In this document: piece after piece, positions 5,850-31,942 of the stretch
Position numbering within the stretch: the stretch's first letter is position 1
Layout of the letters: each line of letters opens with the position of its first letter
Source of the DNA: Candidatus Poribacteria bacterium
GTDB taxonomy: Bacteria; Poribacteria; WGA-4E; JAJDTR01
NCBI GenBank assembly: GCA_965232235.1
Contig: OZ246960.1
Span: 871,058 to 935,057, forward strand
Length of the DNA stretch: 64,000 nt
Direction of reading: 5' to 3'
The notes under the pieces: model-generated
Seen by the model: the letters and a program-made list of their open reading frames with translations, nothing else
Databases searched by the model: none
What the model was told of the DNA's origin: nothing
Program-made: the position numbers and the translations under genes

Positions 5850-5883
5850 AGCGAATGGATAATGAGTGCGATAGAGATCCCTT
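5850..5883 (-). repeat. copy of the R1 short repeat family (ctatcgcNctcattatccattcgcttgatc)
   Basis: Reverse complement matches the family consensus. Confidence 0.6.
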
Positions 5884-6129
5884 TCCAACCGCACCGGCAC
5901 CTACGGAAACCAGCGCCATGAGTCATCTCTTGTGGCGCACCCATCAGTGAACGAACTGGTATTCCCTCGCTCACGTCTACATGGAGATTAACAGTTCAAG
6001 ACATTGAAGCCGCGTGACTTGCACCCTAAAACGCTTAACTTGATCCCTATGGGGCTAAATTGCGATACAACCTATCCTGACGCTGAGCAACGTCAGACTA
6101 TCCGACGCATTCTTAATCGAATTGTGGTC

Positions 6130-8576: not shown

Positions 8577-8584
8577 AAATGTAT

Positions 8585-8618
8585 CTGGTGCTTCCTCTCG
8601 ATTGAAAGGAAGCACCAG
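8585..8618. terminator. bidirectional hairpin terminator between convergent genes
   Basis: Perfect 12-bp stem ctggtgcttcct / aggaagcaccag with a 10-nt loop; a U-run follows on the minus-strand side. Confidence 0.45.
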
Positions 8619-8629
8619 ATGAGACTCCC

Positions 8630-9145: not shown

Positions 9146-9204
9146 AGTTAAATCTCCTTAATTTCACCCTCCTACGAGTGTCACCGCTTATACTGAGGTA
9201 TAAA

Positions 9205-9732: not shown

Positions 9733-9809
9733 AGGCATAAAAAAGGCCGCTGTCGCCTGGGGAGCTATAAAACAACCACGACTAAAGTAGACATAGAACA
9801 AGGTGTATC

Positions 9810-9908
9810 ATGAAAATCTATCTGCTCGTACTGCTCGTGCTCCTCGGCTGCCGGGAGACGGAGAATCGACCTGTTGTCGAACAGCCCGAAGCGTTCTCCG
9901 GACGGTAG
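9810..9908 (+). pseudogene. remnant lipoprotein signal peptide (32 aa, MKIYLLVLLVLLGC...FSGR*) inside leader copy C
   Basis: Translation by eye; ends with the same ..FSGR stop context as 1231..1608. Confidence 0.4.
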
Positions 9909-10324
9909 AATCGCAGCGTCCGCTTGTTAATCACCGTTTCCCTCACGAGTTGGCGTTTCATAGACACATCCTTGAAATTGTTAAGACAGAGGCACTGTTG
10001 CGAGAACTGCCAATGCCCCTATTGCACAAAAAATGAACATTGGCGTTCACTTGTTAGATACGAATGCACGAACCGCTAAGACACAGCAGGAGGTGAGTTC
10101 GATGCAATTCGTGGGGTAGTGCTAATACAGGGTAACTTATGGACTAGGACAGTCCTGGGACGTGATAGATAGTGGCGCACAACTTGCATACATTCCAATA
10201 ACGCAATCAATTCGAGAACCATCAACTCTACAAGAGACGGCAAATTTTGTGCACTCAACTCGGATCGACTTTCACGAAGTGCTGCCGCTATGAGAACTAA
10301 CACTGCCGAAAAGGTGAAAACCCT
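9880..10324 (+). repeat. duplicated leader segment, copy C
   Basis: First ~200 bp nearly identical to copy A. Confidence 0.7.
10173..10187 (+). promoter_or_regulatory. sigma-54-like promoter match TGGCGC-acaac-TTGC
   Basis: GG-N10-GC spacing retained; 138 bp upstream of ATG 10325. Confidence 0.4.
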
Positions 10325-10972
10325 ATGAACGACTCCAACTTGTTCGGACGAATCGTTAAGGCGGCGGTGGTCGTCGCCCTATACGCATTCTTTTTCATCG
10401 GTGCTGTCGTCCTGATAATCGGCTGCGGCGAGGAACGTGAGGATATCCTGCAGCCGGCCTTGCCAACGATTAATCTGAGAGCACAAGACATCGATCCGAG
10501 CTTTCGTCAGTTTGCATATGCCATCACCGCCAGCGAGCCGCTCCCCTATTCTATAACACTGCGCGTAGACACCACTGCCGACGTATTCGCAAACGGGCAC
10601 TTCCAAATTGTGAGAAATAAGGAAATCCTCACTTTCAAGCGTGGTTCACAGACGGTCTACGGATTCTACAACAGATATTTCCTGCAAGCGTTCCTGTATC
10701 AAAACAGCTTTTTTTTCGATAAGGAGTTCGGGACGCTGGAATGCGTTCGCGGCGGCGGCGCCGGTTCCGTCCCAGACCCCCCGCGTGGGGCTCACCCCGT
10801 GATTCAGATAAAGGTAATGATCTCACATCCACTGCCCAACGACGACCATTGCGTCAGCCTTGCCGGCGGTGCCTACACTATTGAGAGTTCGAAACTCACT
10901 TTAAGGGCGCCTGACGATCTCATCGAGACGCTGTTTCCTGACCCGGACACCCGCCCATGGGAAGTCCGATAA
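10325..10972 (+). CDS. hypothetical membrane-anchored/lipoprotein (215 aa)
   Basis: N-terminal TM helix ending in IIGCG. Confidence 0.4.
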   Translation: MNDSNLFGRIVKAAVVVALYAFFFIGAVVLIIGCGEEREDILQPALPTINLRAQDIDPSFRQFAYAITASEPLPYSITLRVDTTADVFANGHFQIVRNKEILTFKRGSQTVYGFYNRYFLQAFLYQNSFFFDKEFGTLECVRGGGAGSVPDPPRGAHPVIQIKVMISHPLPNDDHCVSLAGGAYTIESSKLTLRAPDDLIETLFPDPDTRPWEVR

Positions 10973-11013
10973 TACCCCTTATCGGACTTCCTTAAACCCG
11001 AGGTAAAGCACCA

Positions 11014-11230
11014 TGAAATATACCTGCTGCTACTCGTTACCCTCTTCGCCTGCAGCGAAACCGATAATACACTTATGCCGGTAGCATGGTTCCATACGGG
11101 GAAGGAGTCTGGACCTGGTCTGGTAGACCCGACTGGCCCGATTACGACACCTAGATATTCGAGTCTTTCTGTCTGGTGTCGGATATCCCCATGCCGGCCA
11201 CAACCTACATTTTGGTAGAAGACCGTTTCG
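11014..11230 (+). pseudogene. frameshifted lipoprotein remnant
   Basis: The +1 frame after codon 4 reads LLLLVTLFACSETDNT.., a lipobox. Confidence 0.35.
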
Positions 11231-11419
11231 TCCACATGGCCGAAGGCGAGCTCCGATCCCAGGAAGTCGTTTTCTGGAGTATATGTCCGCCCCGGACCAC
11301 TAACGACTCGCCCCCTAGGTTCGAGGCGCAAATAAAGCCGATGCACGAACGATCCCGACACTTGCCGTCTAACCCTTGAAGTTAGATACTGTACAGCAAT
11401 TACTATCCATCAGAACACC

Positions 11420-12223
11420 GTGTATGCCGGAACATGGTACGACGGCGTATTTCGCTCCGACAGTCATGGCAACACATGGCAACCCATAAACAACGGAATC
11501 CGCTTAATCGATCGGGGTAGCGAAGAACTCGGGCCTCCAATCATTGAGCAAATACTCGTGACGAGTTCCGGAACCGTCATCGCTGTGGGGTACCACAGCG
11601 GTACGCATACATCGACCGACCGAGGCAAGACATGGCACGACGTAACACTAGAGTGGAAAGTGCGCCGAGACGCATGGGGACTGCCCGACCGGATAATAGG
11701 CGATGGTATCTGGTCGATGGCGGAGTTCGACGGCTATCTTTGGGCAGCCTATTCGAGATACCAAGTATTCCATTCCCGTGACAACGGCGTAACGTGGGAA
11801 CATACCAGCGGATTCGGGCATGGCCGGGTTGCCGACTGGGCGGTGCTTAATGATCGATTATACGTGGCCGGGGACGAAGGCTTTGGGCGATGGAACGAAG
11901 CCGAACTCGCGTGGGACGATCTCAGCCGAGGGCTTCCGCCAGCTGGCAGGTGGCCCGACCGTCCAGACCTCTCAATACAAACCCTGGTTGTTCATCGCGG
12001 ACGTATCTTCGCCGGGCTTCGGAACAACGGCGTGTGGACGTTTGATGAGCGCTCCGAAACGTGGATTCCCGCTGGTCTCGACGGGTTGACCGTTACCTCG
12101 CTCGTATCCCATCGATCCGATCTGTACGCAGCAACCAAAGAGGGCATCTACCGCGCTTCAATCCCGACCGTGCAACCCTCCGGTAAAGCCCTCACGACAT
12201 GGGGCACCGTTAAAACAAAATGA
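11420..12223 (+). CDS. BNR/Asp-box paralog 5, 5'-truncated
   Basis: Homology to paralog 1 starts about 11390 (..TAITIHQNTVYAGTWYDG..), equivalent to residue ~90 of the full-length proteins; no signal peptide; Asp-boxes and the tail PSGKALTTWGTVKTK are present. Confidence 0.55.
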   Translation: MYAGTWYDGVFRSDSHGNTWQPINNGIRLIDRGSEELGPPIIEQILVTSSGTVIAVGYHSGTHTSTDRGKTWHDVTLEWKVRRDAWGLPDRIIGDGIWSMAEFDGYLWAAYSRYQVFHSRDNGVTWEHTSGFGHGRVADWAVLNDRLYVAGDEGFGRWNEAELAWDDLSRGLPPAGRWPDRPDLSIQTLVVHRGRIFAGLRNNGVWTFDERSETWIPAGLDGLTVTSLVSHRSDLYAATKEGIYRASIPTVQPSGKALTTWGTVKTK

Positions 12224-12235
12224 CGGAGACCGCTC

Positions 12236-13309
12236 ATGAATAACAAACTCAGCTTAACGTTTATCCTAACCCCACTCCTGCTCGCGATCTGGCTCTCCAA
12301 TTTCGTCCAAGATGCCCGCGCGGAGTGGGAACATATCCCCGGCACCGAGGTCATCGGGAGCGTCGAACTGCTTGAAAGCGACGGTGTCCGTCTTTACGCC
12401 ATAGGTGACGCCGGCTTTTACCTCTCCTTCGATGACGGTTACACCTGGCGTCGCCGCAACATTGGTCGCGGCATCGAGGACTTTTATATCACCGCCATTG
12501 GAAGCGGGGATGGTGCCGTCTATGTCGGTACGGCAGACCACGGCGTGATCCGCTCCGACGACGGCGGCAACACCTGGGAGCACATTAACGAAGGGCTCCA
12601 CATCTTCGACAGCCCGAAATGGGGGGCCCACTACGGAAAGGTTGAACAAATGCTTGTCACAGGTTCCGGCATGGTCATCAACGTAGGATACCACCGTGGC
12701 ACGCACATATCTAACAACCGAGGCGAGAAATGGCGCGACGTAATGATGGAATGGAAGGCATCCCAAGGACCGGGACAGCACGATTGGGCTTTCGGCGACG
12801 GCATCTGGTCGATGACCGAGTTCGACGGCTATCTCTGGGCCGTCTATTCGGACGCCCCGGTATTCCGGTCCCCCGACCAGGGCGCCACTTGGGAGCTTCT
12901 TCCAATCCGAAGCTACGGCAGCATCCGCGACTTTGGGCGCGTACACGACTGGGCGGAGCTTGGGGATAAGCTGTACATCGCCGGAATCGGCGGCTTCGGG
13001 CGATGGAACGAAGCCGAACTTGCTTGGGACGATTTCAGCCAAGGACTCCCGCCGGAACGGATAGCAAGCCTAGCGGTTAATCGCGGCCGTATCTTCGCCG
13101 GAACAAGGAACAACGGCGTGTGGGTGTTTGATGGCCGATCCGAAAGGTGGATTCCCACAGGTCTGGACGGGTTGACCGTTACTTCGCTCGAACCCCATCA
13201 ATCCGATCTGTACGCGGCAACCAAAGAGGGCATCTACCGTGCTTCAATCTCGACCGTGCAACCCTACGGCAAAGCTGCCGCCACATGGGGCGCCATAAAA
13301 CAACGATGA
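12236..13309 (+). CDS. secreted BNR/Asp-box beta-propeller protein, paralog 6 (357 aa)
   Basis: Signal peptide; SFDDGYTW, SDDGGNTW, SPDQGATW; tail KAAATWGAIKQR. Confidence 0.75.
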   Translation: MNNKLSLTFILTPLLLAIWLSNFVQDARAEWEHIPGTEVIGSVELLESDGVRLYAIGDAGFYLSFDDGYTWRRRNIGRGIEDFYITAIGSGDGAVYVGTADHGVIRSDDGGNTWEHINEGLHIFDSPKWGAHYGKVEQMLVTGSGMVINVGYHRGTHISNNRGEKWRDVMMEWKASQGPGQHDWAFGDGIWSMTEFDGYLWAVYSDAPVFRSPDQGATWELLPIRSYGSIRDFGRVHDWAELGDKLYIAGIGGFGRWNEAELAWDDFSQGLPPERIASLAVNRGRIFAGTRNNGVWVFDGRSERWIPTGLDGLTVTSLEPHQSDLYAATKEGIYRASISTVQPYGKAAATWGAIKQR

Positions 13310-14427
13310 ATTACCTAATCTTCGTACTTGCACTATTAAGCTTTCTTGTTGCCTCCGCTCTCCTCGTGCTCTCCCTCGACAGTTGCTCGCCGAACGCAGA
13401 TGCCGCTTTCCAGGCCGACTGGATTCACCTCTCCGGCACTGAGGCGCTGGAGGCGGAGCTTCTCGAAACCGATGGCAACCGCCTCTACGCCGCCACTTGG
13501 GAAGGAGTGTACATCTCCTTGGATAATGGTTACACCTGGCGTTATGCCGAGATTGCCCACGGTCTTGAACAATTTTATATTATCGCAATTGGAATAGGGC
13601 GCAATGCCGTGTATGCAGGGACACAACACCACGGCGTATATCGCTCCGACAGCCACGGCAACACCTGGAAGCCCAAAAGAAACGGTATACACATATTCGA
13701 TTTAGATGAACCCGATCTAGAACCCCATTACGCAGCCGTTAAGCAAATACTCGTCACCCGTTCCGGCACAGTCATTGCCGTGGGGTACCATGCGGGCACC
13801 TATATATCCACCAACCGAGGCGAAGCATGGCATGGCACCGACGAGTGGCGGTACACCAGAGAACATCTGGGCTTGGACGACGTGCCAATAGGCTATGATA
13901 TCTGGTCGATGACCGAGTTCGACGGCTATTGGTGGGCAGTTACTTCGAGCGGTTCGTACAAATTGTGCCGTTCCTCTGACGACGGCGAAACGTGGGAAGG
14001 TCTTCCCTACTGGGTAGCCGGCGGAAGTATCGCCGAGTACCCTCATGTAGTCGATTGGATAGTGCTCAATGATCGGTTATACGTCGCCGGAGCTGGAGGC
14101 CTCGGGCGATGGAACGAAGCCGAACTTGCTTGGGACGATTTCAGCCAAGGACTCCCGCCGGAACGGATAGCAAGCCTAGCGGTTAATCGCGGCCGTATCT
14201 TCGCCGGAACAAGGAACAACGGCGTGTGGGTGTTTGATGAGCTATCCGAAACGTGGATTCCCGCTGGTCTCGACGGGTTGAACATTTACGACCTCATATC
14301 CCATCAATCCGACCTGTACGCCGCCACGGACGAGGGCATCTACCGCGCTTCAATCCCGACCGTGCAACCCTACGGCAAAGCCGCCGCAACTTGGGGCGCC
14401 CTGAAACACGAAGCTCTCGCCAAATAG
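13306..14427 (+). CDS. secreted BNR/Asp-box beta-propeller protein, paralog 7 (373 aa)
   Basis: True start is MNYLIFVLALLSF at 13306 (ATGA overlap); the upstream part of ORF 13147.. is an antisense artefact; 133 bp at 14103..14236 are identical to 13001..13133. Confidence 0.75.
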   Translation: MNYLIFVLALLSFLVASALLVLSLDSCSPNADAAFQADWIHLSGTEALEAELLETDGNRLYAATWEGVYISLDNGYTWRYAEIAHGLEQFYIIAIGIGRNAVYAGTQHHGVYRSDSHGNTWKPKRNGIHIFDLDEPDLEPHYAAVKQILVTRSGTVIAVGYHAGTYISTNRGEAWHGTDEWRYTREHLGLDDVPIGYDIWSMTEFDGYWWAVTSSGSYKLCRSSDDGETWEGLPYWVAGGSIAEYPHVVDWIVLNDRLYVAGAGGLGRWNEAELAWDDFSQGLPPERIASLAVNRGRIFAGTRNNGVWVFDELSETWIPAGLDGLNIYDLISHQSDLYAATDEGIYRASIPTVQPYGKAAATWGALKHEALAK

Positions 14428-14545
14428 CCCGAGTTTCTACGTATAGAAAATCCATCGGATTTACATCAGAGTTGAATTGGTCAACCGTTCGCTCCGGCAG
14501 CACGGCATGTTTAAACAGCGTCGATTTAACTCGCAAAGCCCCAGT

Positions 14546-14585: not shown

Positions 14586-14949
14586 TTTGCCCCGCTTTGG
14601 AGAGACTTGATTGACGCTATTAACGCACCGCAGATATATAGAACTGGTATTTCTACATAGAGTCCAGGTTTTCGATCCGGAGGATCGGTATGTCAATAGT
14701 ATACGATATGTCCGAATTTCCGCGTTCCAGCGGAGCGCAATGTGTGGCATACACTTATCCTGACGGGATGATTATCTCATCAAGCAATACTCCTTTTTTC
14801 GCCCTTTGACTGGCTTTGAATTAGTGTTACTTGTGAGAATCCAATAAGGGACATGACGCGCCCAAGCACGTGTGGTATAATTGAATTGTAGGACAAAAGG
14901 GCTGCCTGACGGAATCGGGGCCTTGATTAGGAGCGACACGAGGAAAGCA

Positions 14950-15650: not shown

Positions 15651-16757
15651 TTACCTACCACTCCAGACGGCTCTTAACAAATCCCCCGTGTAAATCGCGC
15701 TGGGCAACACCTCGTACTCCGCCCAGCACCCGGGGCACTTGTTGACCCATTCCCGCTGCTTCCCTATCCTGCCATTCGCCCACAAATCGGCGAATTTCTC
15801 CTCCTTCAGATTCCCGACGCTTGTCGTGTTGAACTGGCACGTCGGCACACGCCCATCCGGCAGCAGCCGCAGGTGCGAATTAAGTGCGACGCATTTCGGA
15901 TTGGGCACGCCCTCACCTTGAAGCAACCGATTCCGGATGCCCTGCAGGTAGTAGCGTTTCGCGAGCCGGTCAAGCAGCGGATAATTCGTGAGGTCCTTCT
16001 CAATCTCGTCGAACAGCGTTTGAAGATGCTCCTCCGTGAATTCGCCAAACGTCGTAAACTGACCAATCTGCGACGGAGCAACCTCCAGCTCCTCCTCCAA
16101 GTTATAGGTCGCGCTTAGGTCGTAAGCCATCACGACATTGTTCCGAACACCCAACGGCTCTAGGAACTCCCGCAAGCGCTTATAGTGTTCAACCCCCTCC
16201 GCATCAACTATCGACTGATTCACCGACAGACTCATCCGCAGCTCCTTCTGACGCGGCGCCAGAGCATTGAGCGTCCTCACGATGAAATCCCACGCCTTGT
16301 CATGGCCCCGCACATGGTTATGCTTCTCATCCATACCGTCAACGGAAACGAGCATACTCAACGGAACATCCCGCCGCCGCTTCTCGCAGAACTGCACAAT
16401 CCGGTCTGTCAGGAAACCGTTCGTCGTGACATGAATCATTAGCGGTTTAAGTTTGTCTTGGACGAGATGAGCGATGTCCAATAGGTCACGCCGAACAAAC
16501 GGCTCACCACCCGTCAACCGCACGGCGTCCATCCGCGGCAGTTTATTGAAGATGTTTCCAATCTCGTCAATGCTCAAATCGTTCGGCGAAGGCTTGCGCC
16601 ACGAGTCGCACATGATGCACCTCGCATTGCACGAGAACGTCACGATATACGTCAAACACCGGGGTAGTGTCACGGCGCGGCGGCGGGCGCGCCCAACCGT
16701 GTGAAGAAACGAGAGCAGGCGATTCTTGATCTCGAAATGAGACGGGTGTCCGCTCAT
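15651..16757 (-). CDS. radical SAM protein
   Basis: CNARCIMC (Cx3Cx2C) near the N-terminus; GGEP motif. Confidence 0.75.
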   Translation of the reverse strand: MSGHPSHFEIKNRLLSFLHTVGRARRRAVTLPRCLTYIVTFSCNARCIMCDSWRKPSPNDLSIDEIGNIFNKLPRMDAVRLTGGEPFVRRDLLDIAHLVQDKLKPLMIHVTTNGFLTDRIVQFCEKRRRDVPLSMLVSVDGMDEKHNHVRGHDKAWDFIVRTLNALAPRQKELRMSLSVNQSIVDAEGVEHYKRLREFLEPLGVRNNVVMAYDLSATYNLEEELEVAPSQIGQFTTFGEFTEEHLQTLFDEIEKDLTNYPLLDRLAKRYYLQGIRNRLLQGEGVPNPKCVALNSHLRLLPDGRVPTCQFNTTSVGNLKEEKFADLWANGRIGKQREWVNKCPGCWAEYEVLPSAIYTGDLLRAVWSGR

Positions 16758-17875
16758 GTGGCGAGCTCCTTCTTACGTGTGGCGGGGGGCAATGGTGAGG
16801 CGATAGGTTTATATCCCGGCAAATACTGATTGATAATATTTAGAGCGGCGGTGTTCCCATACACCTGCCGACGATTGATGCGAGCGCGAAATGCCTCGCA
16901 CCGCTCCATAAAATAGCGCGTATGTACCGGCGAAATCTGCTCCATTCCCACGCTCATACCGGCTCCCGAACGTTGGACAAAATGCCCGTTGATGCGTTGC
17001 TCGTGGTTGCGGTGTTCCGGCATGGCGAGCACCGGCTTTTCAAGATAGAGAGCTTCCCCGATGAGTTGGTTTCCAGCCGTGCTTATCAATGCGCGGCTCG
17101 TCGCTAGGTCTTCCACGAACCGGTGCATGTCGATCGGCAAGAATCGCAATCGCCCGGAAGACGACTGCTCTCCCAGTCCGTAAATGCGCACCTCGCACCC
17201 GCAGGCTTCAAGCGCGCCAAAAACTTCGCGCGAACCGAATCGCCGCAGATACACCACTAGATGATCGCCGCGCTCCGGTGCGGCTTCCAGAACTTCGGAC
17301 CTCAGCAATACGCCAATCTGGGTGACATCATGCGCTCTAGGTTTAAGCGGCGGAAAGTAGAACGACGAGACAACCGTTTGCAATTGACCACGGCAATAGC
17401 CGCGCACGATCTGTGCCATGAAGAACGCATGCCATCTTAGCTCCATGGGCAGCGAACTCAGGTCCGACGTAACTAGCACGTGTTGGTGATCCAGACTGAT
17501 GTAAGGAACGCCTGCGTGCCGTATGGCTCTGGGCAGCGCGGGCTCGAAATCGGTTATCGCCAAGTCGGGTGACTCTCGCTCAATATCCGACCGCAGCCGC
17601 CGAGAAAGCGCGGCGTACTTCGCGGCATAGGACAACCCCTTTATTCCCGTTCTTACGGGATTCAGCCGATGGCTGCGAGTGTAATGAAACGACAGCCCCG
17701 GAATGTGTCTAACGGTAACATCACTCTCTTGATACACCGGTTGTAACAGGTCGTAGGCTTGCCCCGGCGCGTAAATTACAATCCGATGATTCTTCCGCAA
17801 CTCCTCGACAATGGCGCGCACACGTGTGGCATGACCGCGCCCCTCACCGGACAAGCTATAGAATATAGTTGCCAT
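16754..17875 (-). CDS. glycosyltransferase (GT1/GT28, MurG/MGT-like)
   Basis: N-terminal YSLSGEGRGHATR Gly-rich loop; 373 aa GT-B-like. Confidence 0.55.
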   Translation of the reverse strand: MATIFYSLSGEGRGHATRVRAIVEELRKNHRIVIYAPGQAYDLLQPVYQESDVTVRHIPGLSFHYTRSHRLNPVRTGIKGLSYAAKYAALSRRLRSDIERESPDLAITDFEPALPRAIRHAGVPYISLDHQHVLVTSDLSSLPMELRWHAFFMAQIVRGYCRGQLQTVVSSFYFPPLKPRAHDVTQIGVLLRSEVLEAAPERGDHLVVYLRRFGSREVFGALEACGCEVRIYGLGEQSSSGRLRFLPIDMHRFVEDLATSRALISTAGNQLIGEALYLEKPVLAMPEHRNHEQRINGHFVQRSGAGMSVGMEQISPVHTRYFMERCEAFRARINRRQVYGNTAALNIINQYLPGYKPIASPLPPATRKKELAT

Positions 17876-17998: not shown

Positions 17999-18976
17999 CT
18001 ATTCACGCCAAGAGGAGGTTCCTCGCGCGGAATCGTTCAAGGCAAGCAACCCCACAACTCCGAGGTGATCCGAAAGGATCTGCGTTTTGAGGACGGCGCT
18101 GTAACGCAACTTGACTCCCTCCCCATGAACCATCAATCCGTCAATGGCTTCCCGCTTTGGCGCTCTCCCGCTAAACCGGTTCACCCCCCTTCGAGTTAAC
18201 GGATTGAGGCGAGTATCGTAGGTTGCATCGGTGGCGGCGATATTAAACGGCTCTCCGTGTTTCGCGTTCAGTTCCACCCGGTGCGGATACGTCAAATTGT
18301 AATCACCGCCGACAACGAGATTGGGATAGATGGCTGCAAGGCTCAAGACCTCCCTGAACTGCGACTCCGTGAAGGCTCTGCCGGTAGTCCTCGGCGAATA
18401 CAGATGCGTGTTCCCCAACGTCAATCCGTTGCTGTCGGTGACCAGCAGCACCCCCTTTTCCGCATGGATCTCGTCTAACCTTCCGCCAACAGGTTTCCCG
18501 AAATACTTGTAAGTCGACTCATGCGGCTTCGTCGATTTGACCAGCGTGACCAAACCGCCCTTATTCATCAAATGGCGCTTCTGACCTGATCGGAACACCT
18601 GATATTCAGATAACCGTTTCTCTAACGCATTCACATCGCATGAGCACCACACCTCTTGCAGTAGAACATAATCCGGCTTGTGTTGCTTGATATACGAGAC
18701 AATCCGATTCTGTCGCGGCTTGTTTCTATACGACAACCAAAGAGGAAGCGCCCATACATTGAGAACAAGAATCGATCGCGACTCCTGCCGCGTCAATGCC
18801 GTTGGGCTTGCTTTTATCCATGATGGCGTTTCATCCATGAATTGAATCTCCCTTTCAATTCGGTGCCAGTGTTGAATTTCATGAAGCCTTGCGCCATTGG
18901 GAGTAACAGTGTGCTTTTCTGCTCGGCGCGTCCCTGACGCGCTAAGACCGGCTAGCACTACACAGCAGCATTCCAA
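17999..18976 (-). CDS. endonuclease/exonuclease/phosphatase (EEP) family hydrolase
   Basis: LVLNVWALP, VLLQEV, GGDYNLT motifs. Confidence 0.6.
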   Translation of the reverse strand: MECCCVVLAGLSASGTRRAEKHTVTPNGARLHEIQHWHRIEREIQFMDETPSWIKASPTALTRQESRSILVLNVWALPLWLSYRNKPRQNRIVSYIKQHKPDYVLLQEVWCSCDVNALEKRLSEYQVFRSGQKRHLMNKGGLVTLVKSTKPHESTYKYFGKPVGGRLDEIHAEKGVLLVTDSNGLTLGNTHLYSPRTTGRAFTESQFREVLSLAAIYPNLVVGGDYNLTYPHRVELNAKHGEPFNIAATDATYDTRLNPLTRRGVNRFSGRAPKREAIDGLMVHGEGVKLRYSAVLKTQILSDHLGVVGLLALNDSARGTSSWRE

Positions 18977-20632: not shown

Positions 20633-22369
20633 ATGACTTACAACTGCCGACAAGTCTATAGTATCCTAACCGTCGTCGCCGTGCTCGTTTCAATCACGGT
20701 CCCCTTGGAAGCTGAATCGCCGGATTTCCCGGACCGTGTTCCGATGGTAGAACGCCCATTTTCGGATGATCCGGACAAGTTCAGCTTTGCTATCATCGGC
20801 GACAAGACCGGCGGCGGCGAGAACAAGTGGCACGTGTTCGACCGTGCCATAGCCGAAATCAATGCGCTAAAACCCGACTTTGCTATCATGGTCGGCGACC
20901 TGATTCAGGGGTACACGGAGGACATTAGGAAGATTGAGTCGGAATGGATTGAGTTCTGGGGGCGTCAATCGCCTTTGGAAGTCCCCTTTATACCGCTGCC
21001 CGGCAACCACGACATCACCAACCGCGTGATGTACGACTACTGGGTTGAAAATCTCGGGCGCACTTATTCGGCGTTCACCTACAAGCACTGCCTTTTTCTG
21101 CTGCTCAACACGGAGGAATGGCACGGTCTTCCCGAATCAGGCGATAGCGCGCCGGAGAACTGGTTCGGCGATCGGCAAATCGACTACGCGCTCACAGTGT
21201 TGGCGGAACACAATGACGTGCGGCACACCTTTGTTATGCTGCACAAACCCGCATGGCTGCATGAAGACTCGGGTTGGCTTGAGATTGAGGCGGGGCTTGC
21301 CGGACGTGAATACACGGTTTTTGCGGGGCACTACCACAACCTGACGCTGCACTCGCGGAACGACCGTCGCTATTTTGTTCTGGGCGCCACCGGCGGCGCT
21401 TTTACGCCGCGGGCGTCGAAGGAGTTCGGCGCGTTCGATCACTACAGCATCGTAACCGTGGACGGCGGCGATGTGGGCGTTGCGATCATCGAACCCGGCA
21501 ACGTTCATCCGGCGGACATTTCGACGGCGGAATTCAAAGAGAAACTGGCGAGCCTAGTCACATTCGAACCCGATTTCAAGGTCAGCAGGAAACAACCGCC
21601 GTCCCGCGGCACGATTGAAGTGCGGTTGAAGAACACGCTCGAAAATCGTGTCAAAGCCGAACTCGCTTTCATCACCGATACGAACTGGCGGGTAACGCCG
21701 CGCATAGTTACCCTCGAAGCTCAACCGGGGGAGGAGATGAGGAGAATCGTGAAGTTTTCCTGCGCAGCCGACGCGTTGCTCCCCTTCCCTACCTACGGCT
21801 ACGGGATTCTGTACGGTGGGGAGCGGTTGTACGGCCGCGCTGATATAATTAACCCGGTTGACCCGACGGACATGCATTCCGTCAAGGACTGGATGGTTCT
21901 AGGGCCGTTCGACCTGGGCGTGACACAAAAACCTACTACGCCGGGAGAATATCCGGCTGCGTTCACCTCAAACTTCCAGCCGAGGCTGGACACTTCAACC
22001 TACCCGGGGAAAACCGGGCAAATCGGCTGGCAGGAATACCGTACTGGAGATGGTCTGGTTAGTTTGGACGAGGCGTTTGGTGAACCGGATTGGGCAATCG
22101 GATACGGAGTGACCCATATCAAGAGCCCCGAGGATCGGACGGTTCTGGCGGCGGTGCAATGGAACGACATCGGGCGGCTCTTCCTCAACGGCGACGAACC
22201 CTGGGTGCAAATCACGGATAACCCACATTTGGGTTACGTCGAACTGCCATTGCGGGCGGGCTGGAACACCCTAATGGTAAAGTGCGCGAACTACACGGGC
22301 GCATGGAGCTTTCGGATAGCAATCGAAAACCCGCGGGACGACCTCCAATTCTCTAATCGGCAGAAGTAG
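20633..22369 (+). CDS. secreted calcineurin-like metallophosphoesterase with an extra C-terminal domain
   Basis: Signal peptide; GDKTGGGE, MVGDLIQ, PGNHD motifs. Confidence 0.65.
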   Translation: MTYNCRQVYSILTVVAVLVSITVPLEAESPDFPDRVPMVERPFSDDPDKFSFAIIGDKTGGGENKWHVFDRAIAEINALKPDFAIMVGDLIQGYTEDIRKIESEWIEFWGRQSPLEVPFIPLPGNHDITNRVMYDYWVENLGRTYSAFTYKHCLFLLLNTEEWHGLPESGDSAPENWFGDRQIDYALTVLAEHNDVRHTFVMLHKPAWLHEDSGWLEIEAGLAGREYTVFAGHYHNLTLHSRNDRRYFVLGATGGAFTPRASKEFGAFDHYSIVTVDGGDVGVAIIEPGNVHPADISTAEFKEKLASLVTFEPDFKVSRKQPPSRGTIEVRLKNTLENRVKAELAFITDTNWRVTPRIVTLEAQPGEEMRRIVKFSCAADALLPFPTYGYGILYGGERLYGRADIINPVDPTDMHSVKDWMVLGPFDLGVTQKPTTPGEYPAAFTSNFQPRLDTSTYPGKTGQIGWQEYRTGDGLVSLDEAFGEPDWAIGYGVTHIKSPEDRTVLAAVQWNDIGRLFLNGDEPWVQITDNPHLGYVELPLRAGWNTLMVKCANYTGAWSFRIAIENPRDDLQFSNRQK

Positions 22370-22736
22370 GGTGGGCACCGCCCACCGTTTCTCGTAGAGA
22401 TTAATCGGGCAAATAGACTAAGCTCGACTTTGTACATTTGAGCGACACAACAAGCGGTGTTAATCAAACGTTGAAGAAACATTGAGAGTGCGCCATTGTC
22501 CCTGTCGGAATAATTCTTTCAGCAAGCAACACTTTCTGGTCGGAGTCCCTTTCCTCGATCCAGAGGATCGAAATGTTAATAGAATGCGGCATGTCCAGAT
22601 TTCCGCGCTCCAGCGGAGCGCCATGTGGTGTATTGATAGATAGTGTTACTTGAGAGGATTTTAACCATCTGGTCTTTTCGGTTGACCTGTGAAAAAATCT
22701 CAGCGGTTTCTAGTGCCATCACAGCGGGGCAAGATG

Positions 22737-22885
22737 GGATCTCTATCGCACTCACTATTCACTCACTTGACCGTAGGTTGGGTTGAACGGTACCTCGAAA
22801 AACTCACACATGGAGCACACATACCTTCGAATCTCCACATCCGCTTATAGGCACCAAAATCTTCGTGAAACCCAACACCTCAGCC
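22737..22885 (+). repeat. R1 repeat copy followed by a REP-like gtaggttgggttgaac..(90 nt)..gtgaaacccaac
   Basis: Seen directly. Confidence 0.5.
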
Positions 22886-22910
22886 AACCTCAACAATGAA
22901 GGCAAGCTTT

Positions 22911-23702
22911 ATGTCCATTTACCTTGAACCGTCACAACTCAATTTTTGGGAAACTAACGGCTATCTCAGAATTCCCGGTTTTTTATCGGATAGCGAGGTT
23001 TCCGCACTGCGTCAATGGGTTGCCGAAATCGAAGGCTGGGAGCAGGATCCGGGTAGATGGATCCACCACTACGAATCGGTATCGGATGGCACCAGGCTCT
23101 CGCGTACCGAAGACTTCATTCCGTATCACGAGGGAATGAAATCGACACTGACGAGCGGCAAAGTGCCGGACGTTATCTCGGAGTTGACCGGAGAGCCAGC
23201 CGTTCTCTACAAAGAGAAAATCAACTACAAATATCCCGGCGGCGGCGGTTATGCCCCTCATCAGGATGCCCCCGCCTACGAGTTCGTCAAAAACCACACC
23301 ACATGCTTAATCTCGATAGATGCGTCGACGGCAGAGAACGGGTGTCTGTACTTCTCGCCCGGGCGGCATCGCGAGGGCATGATTGCGCTGGACGCTGACG
23401 GCTGTATTGATCCCGACGTTGCAGATAGCATGGATTGGGTTGCCGCGCCCACGCAGCCGGGCGACATTCTGTTGTTCAGCTCCTACGTTCCGCACAAGAG
23501 CGGCGAAAACGGCTCAAATCTCCCCAGACGCATCATCTACGCCGTCTACAATAACCTCTCCGACGGCGATTGGCGCGACAAATATTACGAGGACAAGCGT
23601 CAAGCTTTTTCACAATATGCGGGGGACGAGTCGGGAAAATCCGGTCAAATCAGTAAGATAGCCCATTTTCAAGGAAGGACGGTTTTGAACCATGAAGAAT
23701 AG
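22911..23702 (+). CDS. PhyH-family Fe(II)/2-oxoglutarate dioxygenase, PhnY-like candidate
   Basis: YAPHQDAPAY ..VPHKS.. HxD...H facial triad; PhyH-like N-terminus; about 265 aa. Confidence 0.5.
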   Translation: MSIYLEPSQLNFWETNGYLRIPGFLSDSEVSALRQWVAEIEGWEQDPGRWIHHYESVSDGTRLSRTEDFIPYHEGMKSTLTSGKVPDVISELTGEPAVLYKEKINYKYPGGGGYAPHQDAPAYEFVKNHTTCLISIDASTAENGCLYFSPGRHREGMIALDADGCIDPDVADSMDWVAAPTQPGDILLFSSYVPHKSGENGSNLPRRIIYAVYNNLSDGDWRDKYYEDKRQAFSQYAGDESGKSGQISKIAHFQGRTVLNHEE

Positions 23703-24288
23703 CCCCCACGAAACGCTCGCGGAGGACATGACAGGCGCATCGAGCAGTCAGAAGGTTGCCGCCTTATTCGACTTTATGATGCGGAGAGGACAGACTTTCT
23801 ACGACGAGTCCGTGACGCAACTTGAACACGCGCTCCAATGCGCCAACCAAGCGAAAATTCATGACGCCACGGCAACGCAGATAACAAGCGCCCTGCTGCA
23901 TGATCTCGGTCATTTTCTGCTGGACGAGCACAACGCCGACAAAGCGTTTTTGGCGGACGACCTGAATCACGAAGCGGTGGGCGCGGAGTTTATGGAGGCG
24001 TTCTTCCCGGATGCGGTAACGACGCCGGTGCGGTTGCACGTTCCCGCAAAACGCTACCTCTGCACGACAGACGCGGCGTACTACGACGGATTATCCGAAG
24101 CGTCAAAGCGAAGTTTACGAGTTCAGGGTGGTGTGATGTCGGATGAGGAGCGGTCCGCGTTTGAGCGAATCCCCCATTTCGAGGATGCGCTCAGCTTGCG
24201 CCGGTGGGACGATCTCGCGAAAGTGAAAAACCTCGAAACACCCGGGTTGGAGACTTACCGCGGCGTTGTAGAGAGTTGTTTGCGGTGA
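23692..24288 (+). CDS. HD-domain phosphohydrolase/oxygenase, PhnZ-like candidate
   Basis: ALLHDLGHFL HD motif; about 195 aa; start overlaps the stop of the PhyH gene. Confidence 0.45.
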   Translation: MKNSPHETLAEDMTGASSSQKVAALFDFMMRRGQTFYDESVTQLEHALQCANQAKIHDATATQITSALLHDLGHFLLDEHNADKAFLADDLNHEAVGAEFMEAFFPDAVTTPVRLHVPAKRYLCTTDAAYYDGLSEASKRSLRVQGGVMSDEERSAFERIPHFEDALSLRRWDDLAKVKNLETPGLETYRGVVESCLR

Positions 24289-24929: not shown

Positions 24930-26456
24930 TTACCCTAATATAAGCGGCAGGATGAAGGGCACAATCAACTTCTGAATCACGGTTAGCGTTCCAAAGATTG
25001 AATAAAACACGGCGCACAGCACCAGCCCAATCTGCCGCCAAACCGGAGGCCAAATCTCTTTCGGCAGGAACTTCCGGTTCACGTAAAGCGTGTGCAGCGA
25101 CGTAATCACCAGCAGGTATCCGCCAATCGTCGCGGAAACCAGAATCATGAAAAACGGTTTGGCTAGGTACATGGCGACGACGCCCCAAAGAATATAAACG
25201 ATGAGAATAGGATAATAGATGTATTTCGCATCCGATTCTTTCATTCCCCTCGCCTTTGAGAACCCTGTCCAGATGATGTCCGTGTAACGACGCGGAACCA
25301 TGTCCACGTTGCCCAACTGCGTGGAAAATAGCACCCAAAACCCGCACAACAGTGTAAGATACCAAAAGATTTGCCCACCCTTCTCCGCGAGTCCCTCCGC
25401 TTGGAATGCCGCTGCCGACCACTCGTCAATCGCCTGCCCCGCCGGGACAAATGAAATGGTTAGCATTGCGGGAAGCGCCATCCCGAAAAAGCAGCCTACC
25501 ACCCAGATATAGTATTGCTCGAAGCGGTTATACTTCCACCACTCGCGGAAGCGTTTCACGTTTTCCGGGGTAATTCGAAACACCTTGCCGAGATGCGACA
25601 GCGTCACCTTCTGCCCGCCGATTATCGACGGTATGGCTCCAACCAGTCTGCTCATGCCCCAGCCCTTATCGCGGACGTAGTTGGTAATGGTAATGTTCCC
25701 CAATCCGCCGCTGCCGGCGAACGCCGCAAACGCACCGAGCAGCAGCCAGTCAATCCCGCCGCCGCCCTCGTCCGGCGAAGGCAATGCGCCGAAACTAAAG
25801 AACCCTTTGATAACCGTCCACCAAACCTTCGGGGAGACCATGAAGATGTCGATGATGAGCAGGTATCCGATAATCCATACGACCATGACGAGTTGAACTT
25901 TCTCAAGGGCGTTATAGATTTTGCCGCCGAACAGAACAATAAAAAGACAAACGAAGAAGATGAGATACGCAAATGTCCGAACCGTTCCCTGATCGGCATC
26001 GGCGGGCATATACCCCAACCACGCGGCGGCAACGGCTGTAGCCGCCGCCATCGCCCAGCCGGGCCAGATCCCGAAGAAGTCGATGATTGAATAGAAGAAC
26101 GCCCAGAACCGCGACCCCGGACGGCACCGCATGTAGCCGCTCAACATCGGTTCGCCCGTGTAAAGGGTGTAGCGTATGGATTCCGTGTTGAGGAACGCCT
26201 GAAGGAAGATGGCAATCGACGCTATCCAGAGTAGCCTGCCGCCGTATTGTGCCGTAATCGCGGGACCTAACAGCCATTCCCCGCTGCCAATCGATCCGCC
26301 AAGCATGATGATTCCAGGACCCAGGATATTGCGAAATGCACCCCCGAAACGGTAGGCCGGCGGTGCGGGTAGATCATGAACCTCCCAGTCCGGCAAACAC
26401 CCGCCGGGGACCGTTTCCGCGGCTGATCTGTCCGTGTTATTTTGATTTTCTGCCAT
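24930..26456 (-). CDS. NRAMP-related polytopic membrane transporter (variant motif)
   Basis: LGPGIIMLGGSIGSGEW..YGGRLLW matches the NRAMP TM1 region, with GSGE in place of DPGN; more than 10 predicted TM helices. Confidence 0.45.
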   Translation of the reverse strand: MAENQNNTDRSAAETVPGGCLPDWEVHDLPAPPAYRFGGAFRNILGPGIIMLGGSIGSGEWLLGPAITAQYGGRLLWIASIAIFLQAFLNTESIRYTLYTGEPMLSGYMRCRPGSRFWAFFYSIIDFFGIWPGWAMAAATAVAAAWLGYMPADADQGTVRTFAYLIFFVCLFIVLFGGKIYNALEKVQLVMVVWIIGYLLIIDIFMVSPKVWWTVIKGFFSFGALPSPDEGGGGIDWLLLGAFAAFAGSGGLGNITITNYVRDKGWGMSRLVGAIPSIIGGQKVTLSHLGKVFRITPENVKRFREWWKYNRFEQYYIWVVGCFFGMALPAMLTISFVPAGQAIDEWSAAAFQAEGLAEKGGQIFWYLTLLCGFWVLFSTQLGNVDMVPRRYTDIIWTGFSKARGMKESDAKYIYYPILIVYILWGVVAMYLAKPFFMILVSATIGGYLLVITSLHTLYVNRKFLPKEIWPPVWRQIGLVLCAVFYSIFGTLTVIQKLIVPFILPLILG

Positions 26457-31364: not shown

Positions 31365-31760
31365 ATTCTATCGCACCTGAGATTACTCGCTTGATTCCAC
31401 CCCACAACTATCCGGCCGGTTGATGTACGGCTGATTCATGCTTACGGAGTATTGGGGCATACCCCACATAGCGCTCCTCTGGAGCGCGGGGTTTTGGTCA
31501 TCGCTATTCTATTGACATTGCGCTCCTCTGGAGCGCGGAAATGGGACTAATACCATTTCGCTTGAATAACAGTGCATATAGAGCCTGTTTGAATACTCGA
31601 TAGCCAAGCAATTTTGGTCATTTATAGGAAGTTTTTTCGCGTTTTTATATTTGTCTGTCGCGTATCTGTCGCCCCGCTGGGGCTTAGGTGCATGGGGCTT
31701 TGGCGTTTCTATATACCTTCCGCCCACTGGGGCTTTTAAAGGCTGGTGCGCAGTGCGCAC
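31365..31760. repeat. intergenic repeat mosaic: R1 copy, ttctattgacat module flanked by gcgctcctctggagcgc hairpins, gccccgctggggc hairpins, REP gtagggtgcgcactgcgcacc
   Basis: Seen directly. Confidence 0.6.
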
Positions 31761-31942
31761 CCTACAAATGTACTTTTTAAACAGGTTCTATAGTGTTTTC
31801 CTTATACTATTATGAAATGCCCCATACCAACTGTTGCGCTTCACACCAAACCCCGTAGTCGGGAATCAAACTAACGAATAGTGAGTGCGATAGAGATTCC
31901 CTTGCCCCGCTTTGGAAAGACTTGATTGACGCGATTAATACA

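What the first reader, a model, noticed from the sequence alone, without database searches (positions are those of the whole stretch)
20633..24288. Phosphorus-scavenging cluster: secreted metallophosphoesterase plus PhnY/PhnZ-like oxidative phosphonate C-P cleavage pair
A PhyH-family 2OG dioxygenase of about 265 aa is immediately followed, with overlap, by an HD-domain protein of about 195 aa. That is the size and order of PhnY/PhnZ, which hydroxylate 2-aminoethylphosphonate and then cleave the C-P bond oxidatively. A signal-peptide metallophosphoesterase lies upstream. If correct, the organism uses organophosphonates as a phosphorus source.
Basis: partly seen in the sequence, partly recalled or inferred. 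Interest (0 to 1): 0.55.

Follow-up and report, generated by a model that had tools for sequence, protein, structure and literature searches.

The report
Poribacterial oxidative phosphonate-cleavage gene pair
A sponge-symbiont (Poribacteria) genome carries the known two-enzyme oxidative route for breaking carbon-phosphorus bonds, next to a secreted phosphoesterase; the pair was already reported in this phylum, but it resembles the methylphosphonate-specific version more than the 2-aminoethylphosphonate version it was first assigned to.

Summary
Three same-strand genes lie at 20633-24288: a signal-peptide metallophosphoesterase, a PhyH-family 2-oxoglutarate/Fe(II) dioxygenase and an HD-domain protein that overlaps it by 11 nt.

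The HD protein keeps all six PhnZ diiron ligands (H46, H70, D71, H93, H116, D173) and the catalytic His (H74). The dioxygenase keeps the HxD...H triad and the Arg.

The window comes from a Candidatus Poribacteria genome. The pair is adjacent and overlapping in 73 of 76 poribacterial loci, and the phosphoesterase sits directly upstream in about 47-50.

The closest characterised family is the Gimesia PhnY*/PhnZ1 type (methylphosphonate to hydroxymethylphosphonate to formate plus phosphate):
- The dioxygenase is 52-53% identical and the HD protein 59% identical to the Gimesia proteins.
- Identity to the 2-aminoethylphosphonate enzymes of clone HF130 is only 39-40%.
- Both window proteins score below NCBIfam's equivalog cut-offs, which only Gimesia proteins passed among those tested.

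So the pathway class is secure, while methylphosphonate as substrate is inferred.

Kamke et al. (2014) already reported this pair, with the adjacent phosphohydrolase, in Poribacteria as a 2-aminoethylphosphonate pathway. This is therefore a new member of a known kind with a likely substrate reassignment. No phosphonate transporter lies in the window.

The parts
20633..22369 (+). Extracytoplasmic metallophosphoesterase (MPE), 578 aa. It has an N-terminal signal peptide or anchor, a dimetal phosphoesterase domain, a beta-sandwich region and a galactose-binding-like jelly-roll C-terminal domain. An alternative upstream ATG at 20570 would give 599 aa.
   Evidence: Pfam PF00149 covers residues 73-256 of the 599-aa ORF.

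The motif residues D57, D89, N125-H126-D127, H204 and H233/H235 are invariant in 37 orthologues.

Every listed full-length homologue that carries a source name is poribacterial. The PDB holds no sequence relative.
22370..22386 (+). G+C-rich hairpin (GGTGGGCACCGCCCACC) followed by GTTTCTCG, immediately after the MPE stop codon. It is terminator-like.
   Evidence: 7 pairs, 6 of them G-C. The number of such sites in the region is no greater than in shuffled sequence, so this is weak evidence on its own. The GTGGG...CCCACC arms are conserved in L003, L004 and L008.
22387..22910 (.). Unusually long spacer between MPE and the dioxygenase gene. It is filled with short dispersed intergenic repeats. 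The last ~105 nt are conserved with the closest relative and presumably hold the promoter of the pair.
   Evidence: Spacer lengths across loci are typically 90-130 nt, against 526 nt here. Repeat copies recur elsewhere in the window and in other poribacterial loci, and the last ~105 nt are 81% identical to L004. No Rfam family matches.
22911..23702 (+). PhnY*-type 2-oxoglutarate/Fe(II) phosphonate alpha-hydroxylase (PhyH fold), 263 aa. The ORF extends upstream to the ATG at 22896, which would give 268 aa.
   Evidence: PF05721 at 104.5 bits. NF052437 'methylphosphonate hydroxylase' at 354.8 bits, end to end, below its cut-off of 500. It is 52-53% identical to Gimesia proteins that pass that cut-off. 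H122-x-D124, H200 and R211/R212 are invariant in 73 orthologues.
23670..23679 (+). Shine-Dalgarno-like AAGGAAGGA inside the end of the dioxygenase gene, 13 nt before the HD start codon.
   Evidence: Read directly from the sequence. Together with the 11-nt overlap it suggests translational coupling.
23692..24288 (+). PhnZ-type HD-domain mixed-valent diiron oxygenase, 198 aa.
   Evidence: NF052439 at 267.9 bits (cut-off 300), TIGR03276 at 201.3 and TmpB model at 152.9. PDB PhnZ 4mlm at E = 2e-33.

The ligands H46, H70, D71, H93, H116 and D173, the catalytic H74 and the loop Y37-D38-E39 are all present.

It is 59% identical, without gaps, to the PhnZ1 partner in Gimesia fumaroli and 39% identical to HF130 PhnZ.

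Best explanation
The two overlapping genes encode a PhnY*/PhnZ-type oxidative carbon-phosphorus cleavage pathway of the Gimesia (methylphosphonate) type.

Proposed mechanism:
1. The 2-oxoglutarate/Fe(II) dioxygenase hydroxylates the carbon attached to phosphorus. The most likely reaction is methylphosphonate to hydroxymethylphosphonate.
2. The HD-domain diiron oxygenase then uses O2 to cleave the C-P bond, giving formate and inorganic phosphate.

The pair is co-transcribed and translationally coupled.

The upstream gene encodes a secreted or membrane-anchored dimetal phosphoesterase with a carbohydrate-binding-like C-terminal domain. It is a lineage-specific companion, conserved next to the pair in about two thirds of Poribacteria. 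It probably frees phosphate or phosphonate from esterified organic phosphorus outside the cell.

Basis of each step:
- Shown: gene order, overlap, catalytic residues, clade membership and conservation of the neighbourhood.
- Inferred: the substrate (methylphosphonate), co-regulation with the phosphoesterase, and the uptake route.
For: Catalytic residues
- All six diiron ligands and the catalytic His are present, and they are conserved in more than 150 family representatives.
- The facial triad and Arg of the dioxygenase are invariant in 73 orthologues.

Linkage
- The dioxygenase and HD genes overlap by 8, 11 or 17 nt in all 73 poribacterial loci that have an intact pair.
- PhyH-HD fusion-length proteins (438-512 aa, with the HD part C-terminal) occur among the family representatives.

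Clade
- Best NCBIfam models are the Gimesia maris methylphosphonate hydroxylase and hydroxymethylphosphonate dioxygenase.
- The dioxygenase is 52-53% identical to Gimesia proteins that pass the equivalog cut-off.
- The HD protein is 59% identical to G. fumaroli PhnZ1, which scores 409 bits on NF052439, and both share the same FYDE loop.
- HF130 PhnZ (the 2-AEP enzyme) is only 39% identical and scores 124.7 bits on that model, against 267.9 for the window protein.
- In a neighbour-joining tree of 112 family members, the smallest clade holding the window protein and Gimesia PhnZ1 has 9 taxa: all Poribacteria, Gimesia and two fragments. The clade has 16 taxa or fewer in 28 of 30 bootstraps.
- 85 of the 109 poribacteria-invariant dioxygenase positions are identical in all three Gimesia equivalogs. 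The remaining differences are mostly conservative, and none adds an acidic residue.

Companion phosphoesterase
- It lies directly upstream on the same strand in about 47-50 of 76 poribacterial loci.
- It has an intact dimetal motif set and a signal peptide.

Literature
- GmPhnY* is specific for methylphosphonate, while GmPhnZ cleaves both HMP and (R)-HAEP (PMC10574752).
Against: - Both proteins fall below NCBIfam's equivalog cut-offs (354.8 against 500; 267.9 against 300). At 52-59% identity, substrate specificity can differ.
- I had no HF130 PhnY* or Prochlorococcus sequence for a direct comparison of the hydroxylase. The figure of 40% identity to HF130 PhnY comes from Kamke et al. 2014 and refers to orthologues from single-cell genomes, not to this protein.
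- The residues that determine PhnY* specificity are not known to me, so they could not be checked.
- No phosphonate transporter is in the window, and the DUF5690 membrane protein that precedes the Gimesia pair has no homologue here.
- 2-Aminoethylphosphonate is plentiful in sponge lipids according to Kamke et al. A study of the Aplysina aerophoba microbiome found no methylphosphonate synthase (PMC9999580), so methylphosphonate would have to come from seawater.
- The phosphoesterase gene is separated from the pair by a hairpin and 526 nt, so co-expression is not shown.
Confidence: 0.6

Rival explanations
1. The pair is a 2-aminoethylphosphonate pathway, as in clone HF130. PhnY* would make (R)-1-hydroxy-2-aminoethylphosphonate and PhnZ would cleave it to glycine and phosphate. 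The substrate would come from sponge phosphonolipids, and the upstream phosphoesterase would act like a sphingomyelinase to release the phosphonate head group.
For: - This is the published interpretation for Poribacteria (Kamke et al. 2014, PMC3909097).
- Sponge tissues contain 2-AEP lipids (same paper).
- The HD protein keeps the Tyr and Glu of the substrate loop (Y37, E39). In PhnZ that Glu contacts the substrate amino group (PMC8177086).
- GmPhnZ itself also cleaves (R)-HAEP.
Against: - Identity to the HF130 enzymes is only 39-40%, against 52-59% to the Gimesia enzymes.
- HF130 PhnZ scores 124.7 bits on the Gimesia model, against 267.9 for the window protein.
- The window protein clusters with Gimesia in the tree.
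- The loop is one residue shorter than the YxxE loop of HF130 and TmpB and is identical to that of Gimesia.
- GmPhnY* does not accept 2-AEP, and the poribacterial dioxygenase shares 85 of its 109 invariant positions with the Gimesia equivalogs, with no added acidic residue.
Confidence: 0.17
2. The pair acts on a different small phosphonate, for example 2-hydroxyethylphosphonate, an N-methylated aminoethylphosphonate, or hydroxymethylphosphonate taken up directly. Poribacteria would then hold a fifth specificity class of the PhnY*/PhnZ scheme.
For: - The proteins are below the equivalog cut-offs.
- Four specificity versions of this pathway are already known, so further ones are plausible.
- A few non-conservative differences from Gimesia lie at poribacteria-invariant positions: L68/P, L138/S, A164/H, W226/L.
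- The gene neighbourhood differs from that of Gimesia: a phosphoesterase and, in 60 other loci, an alpha/beta hydrolase in place of the DUF5690 membrane protein.
- Polysaccharides of high-molecular-weight dissolved organic matter carry both methylphosphonate and 2-hydroxyethylphosphonate esters (PMC5649143).
Against: No positive evidence points to any particular alternative substrate. The closest characterised relatives on both proteins are the methylphosphonate enzymes.
Confidence: 0.18
3. The HD protein is an ordinary HD phosphohydrolase and the PhyH protein an unrelated hydroxylase. The adjacency would then be coincidental.
For: - The Pfam HD match is sub-threshold (16.9 bits).
- Sources annotate relatives as 'HD family phosphohydrolase'.
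- Poribacteria carry many PhyH paralogues.
Against: - The protein has the six-ligand diiron set, not the four-residue hydrolase set.
- Its strongest matches are PhnZ and TmpB.
- The overlap with the dioxygenase gene is conserved in 73 loci, and fusion-length proteins exist.
- The other PhyH paralogues are only 24-29% identical to this one.
Confidence: 0.03

Closest known systems
GmPhnY*/GmPhnZ1 of Gimesia maris DSM 8797 (methylphosphonate to hydroxymethylphosphonate to formate + Pi; Gama et al. 2019; NCBIfam NF052437 and NF052439)
   Same: - Two-gene order with overlapping reading frames, and similar protein lengths (about 260 and 200 aa).
- End-to-end matches to both models.
- 52-53% and 59% identity to congeneric equivalogs.
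- Identical FYDE substrate loop, and all catalytic residues.
- Nearest clade in the tree.
   Different: - Both proteins are below the equivalog cut-offs. Among the proteins I tested, only those from the genus Gimesia pass.
- The Gimesia pair is preceded by an overlapping DUF5690 membrane protein, which has no homologue here.
- Here the pair is preceded by a secreted metallophosphoesterase.
- The activity of the poribacterial enzymes is untested.
HF130 PhnY*/PhnZ (2-aminoethylphosphonate to glycine + Pi; PDB 4mlm, 4mln, 4n6w)
   Same: Same two-enzyme chemistry and fold. The six ligands, H62 (H74 here), and the Tyr and Glu of the loop are conserved.
   Different: - 39% identity with three gaps.
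- The substrate loop is YxxE in HF130 and Y-D-E here, one residue shorter.
- HF130 PhnZ scores 124.7 bits on the Gimesia-type model.
- The substrate carries an amino group.
TmpA/TmpB of Leisingera caerulea (trimethyl-2-aminoethylphosphonate; PDB 6npa)
   Same: The HD oxygenase is homologous (E = 3e-32; model NF049941 at 152.9 bits).
   Different: From my own knowledge, the hydroxylase partner TmpA belongs to a different 2OG-oxygenase family (gamma-butyrobetaine-hydroxylase-like). The window dioxygenase gave no hit to such a model. The TmpB model score is far below its cut-off of 300.
The poribacterial phnY/phnZ locus described by Kamke et al. 2014 (single-cell genomes 3G and 4E)
   Same: It is the same locus type: a PhyH gene, an HD gene and 'another predicted phosphohydrolase' adjacent. 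A contig of genome WGA-3G is locus L065 in my set, where the three proteins are 65%, 69% and 55% identical to those of the window.
   Different: That paper assigned 2-AEP as substrate, before the Gimesia enzymes were characterised. It did not analyse the phosphoesterase.
GpdQ / purple acid phosphatase / PhoD-type dimetal phosphoesterases
   Different: - Sequence identity is only 13-17%, and the PDB holds no sequence-level relative.
- About 300 additional C-terminal residues form a beta-sandwich and a galactose-binding-like domain.
- Named full-length homologues are all poribacterial.
- Whether it is a monoesterase or a diesterase cannot be told.

Membership tests
[quoted passage not shown] | Six metal ligands H...HD...H...H...D (PhnZ H34, H58, D59, H80, H104, D161) | tested here: met
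   H46, H70, D71, H93, H116 and D173 align to the PDB 4mlm ligands. These columns are conserved in 149-164 of 164 aligned family members.
[quoted passage not shown] | Catalytic His after the HD dyad (PhnZ H62) | tested here: met
   H74 (HDLGH). The column is His in 159 of 164 sequences.
[quoted passage not shown] | Mobile YxxE substrate loop (Y24/E27 in PhnZ, Y30/E33 in TmpB; PMC8177086) | tested here: inconclusive
   The Tyr and Glu are present (Y37, E39), but the spacing is Y-D-E, one residue shorter. The same FYDE loop is found in Gimesia PhnZ1.
[quoted passage not shown] | Encoded next to a 2OG/Fe(II) hydroxylase that makes its substrate | tested here: met
   There is an 11-nt overlap with the PhyH gene. 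Overlaps of 8-17 nt occur in 73 poribacterial loci.
[quoted passage not shown] | O2-dependent C-P cleavage of a 1-hydroxyphosphonate | not testable with these tools
   This needs an enzyme assay.
Hydroxymethylphosphonate dioxygenase PhnZ1 (NCBIfam NF052439, equivalog) | Score at or above the curated cut-off of 300 bits | tested here: not met
   The window protein scores 267.9 bits. For comparison, G. fumaroli PhnZ1 scores 409.2 and HF130 PhnZ 124.7. Ten other 50%-identity representatives score 179-258.
Phosphonate degradation HD-domain oxygenase (TIGR03276) | Score at or above the cut-off of 214.6 bits | tested here: not met
   The window protein scores 201.3 bits. This cut-off does not discriminate here: G. 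fumaroli PhnZ1, the partner of a protein that passes NF052437, scores 202.9, and residues 3-184 of the characterised HF130 PhnZ score 189.6.
PhnY*-type phosphonate hydroxylases (PhyH fold, 2OG/Fe(II)) | PhyH domain with the HxD...H iron triad and a 2OG-binding Arg | tested here: met
   PF05721 at 104.5 bits. H122, D124, H200, R211 and R212 are invariant in 73 orthologues.
Methylphosphonate hydroxylase PhnY* (NCBIfam NF052437, equivalog) | Score at or above the curated cut-off of 500 bits | tested here: not met
   The window protein scores 354.8 bits over model positions 1-256 of 260. Only the Gimesia proteins pass (512-540 bits). Other Planctomycetota and Verrucomicrobia score 337-386, and other Poribacteria 353-360.
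Methylphosphonate hydroxylase PhnY* (NCBIfam NF052437, equivalog) | Accepts methylphosphonate and rejects 2-aminoethylphosphonate | not testable with these tools
   There is only indirect support: 52-53% identity to equivalogs, and 85 of 109 invariant positions shared with them.
Calcineurin-like metallophosphoesterases (PF00149) | Domain match plus the conserved metal-binding blocks (D, GD, GNH[DE], H, GHxH) | tested here: met

The most novel reading that the evidence does not exclude
The conserved poribacterial unit is a three-step pathway for harvesting phosphonate that is ester-linked to glycans.
1. The secreted phosphoesterase uses its carbohydrate-binding-like domain to dock on polysaccharides that carry methylphosphonate (or 2-hydroxyethylphosphonate) esters, and it hydrolyses the ester.
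2. The free phosphonate is imported.
3. It is oxidised by PhnY*/PhnZ to formate and phosphate, without releasing methane.

This would give a named enzyme for the unassigned 'phosphonate ester release' step in the turnover of marine dissolved organic matter. It would also make sponge holobionts a non-methanogenic sink for methylphosphonate.
Probability: 0.15. Interest if true: 0.6.

Novelty: new member of a known kind. Interest (0 to 1): 0.3.

Why it matters
The pathway itself is known, and its presence in Poribacteria was published in 2014, so the locus is not a discovery.

The modest new point is the substrate. The poribacterial pair groups with the methylphosphonate-specific Gimesia enzymes, not with the 2-aminoethylphosphonate enzymes it was first compared with.

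That has a practical edge. Cultivation media designed for Poribacteria have used 2-AEP as the phosphorus source on the strength of the earlier assignment (PMC7042410). The Gimesia hydroxylase does not accept 2-AEP.

It also bears on methane budgets in sponges. Oxidative use of methylphosphonate yields formate rather than methane, whereas recent work on sponge microbiomes considered only C-P lyase (PMC9999580).

The pair is near-universal in Poribacteria and sits next to a lineage-specific secreted phosphoesterase. Together they mark a core phosphorus-acquisition trait of a dominant, still uncultured symbiont phylum.

Tried and rejected
1. Reference sequences. I looked for the G. maris sequences and the paper by Gama et al. 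2019; the paper is not held. I used NCBIfam models and Gimesia proteins that pass the equivalog cut-off instead.
2. Gimesia PhnZ1 among representatives. Ten 50%-identity representatives of the HD family were scanned to locate it. None passed, probably because Gimesia and Poribacteria fall in one 50% cluster.
3. Planctomycete relatives. Loci of P0402 and P0400 were fetched to find paired hydroxylases. Both turned out to be orphan HD genes.
4. Transporter. Pfam scans of 29 window proteins found only a sugar-type ABC system and an Nramp-like transporter, not a phosphonate transporter. The DUF5690 protein of the Gimesia locus has no homologue in the window or in any fetched poribacterial locus.
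5. Nramp-like gene as a functional partner (iron supply): rejected. It is adjacent only in the window's close relatives (HD protein at least 82% identical), so it reflects plain synteny.
6. Endonuclease/exonuclease/phosphatase gene at 17999-18976 as a phosphonolipid-cleaving partner: not supported. It is on the opposite strand, separated by a SprT gene, and conserved only in the closest relatives.
7. RNA elements. No Rfam family matches anywhere in the window, and the spacer has no match in plasmids.
8. Promoter and terminator scans gave no more sites than shuffled sequence, so no regulatory claim is made. A Pho box was not assessed because no poribacterial Pho-box consensus is known to me.
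9. The afdb50 fold library was unavailable.

Full report
**What is there**

The + strand between 20570 and 24288 holds three ORFs:
- A 599-aa protein, or 578 aa from the ATG at 20633.
- A 268-aa protein at 22896-23702.
- A 198-aa protein at 23692-24288.

Pfam assigns them to Metallophos (36.4 bits), PhyH (104.5 bits) and, below threshold, HD (16.9 bits).

The last two genes overlap by 11 nt (ccATGAAGAATAGcc), and an AAGGAAGGA run lies 13 nt before the second start codon. The alignments to the NCBIfam model and to the Gimesia proteins begin at residue 6 of the PhyH ORF, so its real start is probably the ATG at 22911, giving 263 aa.

The phosphoesterase gene is set apart from the pair. A G+C-rich hairpin with a T-rich tail follows its stop codon at 22370-22386, and 526 nt separate it from the next gene.

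**Organism and conservation**

A scan of one genome per species found the HD gene in 80 loci. About 75 come from Candidatus Poribacteria, the sponge symbionts, and the closest are 82-89% identical. The window is therefore poribacterial.

In my comparison of those loci, 73 of 76 poribacterial-type loci have the dioxygenase ORF ending 8, 11 or 17 nt inside the HD ORF. The roughly 580-aa phosphoesterase lies directly upstream on the same strand in about 47-50 of them.

A 226-aa alpha/beta hydrolase (Pfam Abhydrolase_11) follows the HD gene in 60 loci. It is absent from this window.

**The HD protein**

It matches the solved PhnZ structures at E = 2e-33 and TmpB at E = 3e-32. Mapping PhnZ numbering onto the window protein gives:
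- the six diiron ligands H34, H58, D59, H80, H104 and D161 as H46, H70, D71, H93, H116 and D173;
- the catalytic H62 as H74.

These columns are conserved in 149-164 of 164 aligned family members.

The mobile substrate loop is YxxE in PhnZ and TmpB (PMC8177086). Here it is Y37-D38-E39, one residue shorter.

**The dioxygenase**

H122-x-D124, H200 and R211/R212 are invariant in 73 orthologues. The only NCBIfam model it matches meaningfully is NF052437, 'methylphosphonate hydroxylase' (354.8 bits, E = 2.7e-106, model positions 1-256 of 260).

Poribacteria carry many other PhyH genes, as Kamke et al. noted, and several loci hold two to five of them. Those paralogues are only 24-29% identical to this protein.

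**Which version of the pathway**

According to the review PMC10574752, four versions are known:
- HF130 PhnY*/PhnZ, acting on 2-AEP;
- Gimesia maris PhnY*/PhnZ1, where the hydroxylase is specific for methylphosphonate and the oxygenase also accepts (R)-HAEP;
- TmpA/TmpB;
- the fused fungal PhoF.

I could not obtain the G. maris paper. The search with the dioxygenase, however, returned Gimesia proteins that NCBI names methylphosphonate hydroxylase.

Comparison with the Gimesia enzymes:
- Three Gimesia dioxygenases score 512-540 bits on NF052437, above its cut-off of 500. All other Planctomycetota, Verrucomicrobia and Poribacteria that I tested score 337-386. The model is therefore genus-narrow, and the window protein's sub-threshold score is what any non-Gimesia relative gets.
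- The window dioxygenase is 52% identical to one of these Gimesia proteins with a single gap.
- The gene downstream of the G. fumaroli hydroxylase encodes a PhnZ1 that scores 409 bits on NF052439. It is 59% identical to the window HD protein without any gap and has the same FYDE loop.

Comparison with the HF130 enzyme:
- HF130 PhnZ is 39% identical to the window protein, with three gaps.
- It scores 124.7 bits on NF052439, against 267.9 for the window protein.

Two further tests point the same way.
- In a neighbour-joining tree of 112 family members rooted on HF130 PhnZ, the smallest clade containing both the window protein and Gimesia PhnZ1 has nine members: all the Poribacteria, Gimesia and two fragments. 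It has 16 members or fewer in 28 of 30 bootstraps.
- Of 109 positions invariant among poribacterial dioxygenases, 85 are identical in all three Gimesia equivalogs. The differences are mostly conservative, and none introduces an acidic side chain that could pair with an amino group.

Together these results place the pair in the Gimesia clade. Methylphosphonate is therefore the most likely substrate, but that remains an inference from 52-59% identity.

**The phosphoesterase**

Every listed full-length homologue that carries a source name is poribacterial, and the PDB holds no sequence relative.

The five metal-binding blocks (D57, GD89, GNHD124-127, H204, GHxH232-235) are invariant in 37 orthologues. 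The N-terminus has a conserved signal-peptide pattern.

An AlphaFold model (mean pLDDT 75.8) gives these matches:

The fold does not say whether the enzyme is a monoesterase or a diesterase. Its conserved position suggests a role in the same phosphorus-acquisition task. The hairpin and long spacer here mean that co-transcription is not shown.

**Uptake and surroundings**

No phosphonate transporter is in the window. The neighbours are a SprT-like protein, an endonuclease/exonuclease/phosphatase-family protein, a glycosyltransferase, an Nramp-like transporter, a gluconolactonase-like protein, aldose epimerase and a sugar-type ABC system.

In Gimesia the pair is preceded by an overlapping DUF5690 membrane protein. 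That protein has no homologue in the window or in the poribacterial loci. A comparative study lists phosphonate transport among poribacterial functions (PMC8546597), so a transporter presumably lies elsewhere in the genome.

**What is already known**

Kamke et al. 2014 (PMC3909097) reported this arrangement in poribacterial single-cell genomes 3G and 4E:
- a PhyH gene 40% identical to the HF130 phnY;
- an adjacent HD phnZ;
- 'another predicted phosphohydrolase' of unknown role.

They read it as 2-AEP utilisation. A contig of genome WGA-3G is locus L065 in my set. My searches of the held literature for phnZ with sponge symbionts found nothing later that revisits the substrate. Absence from that library does not prove that no such work exists.

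**Verdict**

The locus is an ordinary member of a known pathway, and it has already been noted in this phylum.

The added value is twofold: the likely reassignment of the substrate to the methylphosphonate type, and a description of the lineage-specific secreted phosphoesterase with a carbohydrate-binding-like domain.

The most novel reading not excluded is that this enzyme releases phosphonate esters from polysaccharides. Marine high-molecular-weight dissolved organic matter carries methylphosphonate and 2-hydroxyethylphosphonate esters (PMC5649143). I give that reading a low probability, because nothing here distinguishes it from a general secreted phosphatase.

Noticed in passing
window 22387-22895; copies at about 31459-31548, 14672-14744, 59645-59720, 31876-31914, 5844-5881, 63073-63105, 58459-58502: The spacer before the dioxygenase gene is inflated to 526 nt by short dispersed intergenic repeats. 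Most Poribacteria have 90-130 nt there. The repeats recur elsewhere in the window and in other poribacterial loci, and they are tandem in L007 at 14350-14457. They look like REP- or MITE-type elements.
   Followed up: partly
L012-L078, directly downstream of the HD gene (e.g. L016:9570-10250, L075:8716-9393): A 226-aa alpha/beta hydrolase (Pfam Abhydrolase_11, 141.8 bits) follows the HD gene in 60 of the fetched loci. It is missing from this window and its closest relatives. It may be a fourth member of the unit in most Poribacteria.
   Followed up: partly
many loci, e.g. L018:551-5075, L053:1418-4909, L076:1463-4923: Arrays of two to four further PhyH-family genes (about 283-285 aa, 24-29% identical to the PhnY*-type protein) lie a few kb upstream of the pair in about 46 loci. 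This is consistent with the PhyH expansion reported for Poribacteria. Their function is unknown.
   Followed up: no
L077, L079-L082; L083-L086: HD genes 59-63% identical to the window protein occur without any adjacent PhyH gene in Latescibacterota and Spirochaetia metagenome-assembled genomes. Orphan relatives also occur in Planctomycetota. The substrate of these orphans, and whether the first group arose by transfer from Poribacteria, is open.
   Followed up: partly
L075:5992-8573; L011 (=L002):3732-8597: Two variants of the unit. In L075 the phosphoesterase gene is followed directly by the HD gene, with no dioxygenase between them. In L011 an IS element (DDE_Tnp_1) sits between the phosphoesterase gene and the pair.
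   Followed up: no
proteins P0127, P0134, P0135, P0137, P0139 (438-512 aa): Family representatives of fusion length carry the HD part at the C-terminus. They may be bacterial PhyH-HD fusions analogous to fungal PhoF. Their N-terminal parts were not examined.
   Followed up: no
window 24930-26456 (-): A 508-aa membrane protein matches NCBIfam 'Nramp family divalent metal transporter' (195.9 bits, cut-off 50) but no Pfam family. It is convergent with the HD gene. The adjacency is kept only in the closest relatives.
   Followed up: partly
window 1929-14427 (+): A run of at least seven paralogous genes encodes BNR/Asp-box (Sortilin-Vps10-like) repeat proteins.
   Followed up: no
window 15651-17875 (-): A radical SAM/SPASM gene and a family-1 glycosyltransferase gene overlap by 4 nt. 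The same pair is found in L001.
   Followed up: no
window 17999-18976 (-): An endonuclease/exonuclease/phosphatase-family protein (PF03372, 50.2 bits) lies two genes upstream of the phosphoesterase on the other strand. This family includes neutral sphingomyelinases, so a role in releasing phosphonolipid head groups is conceivable. Only close relatives keep the gene here.
   Followed up: partly
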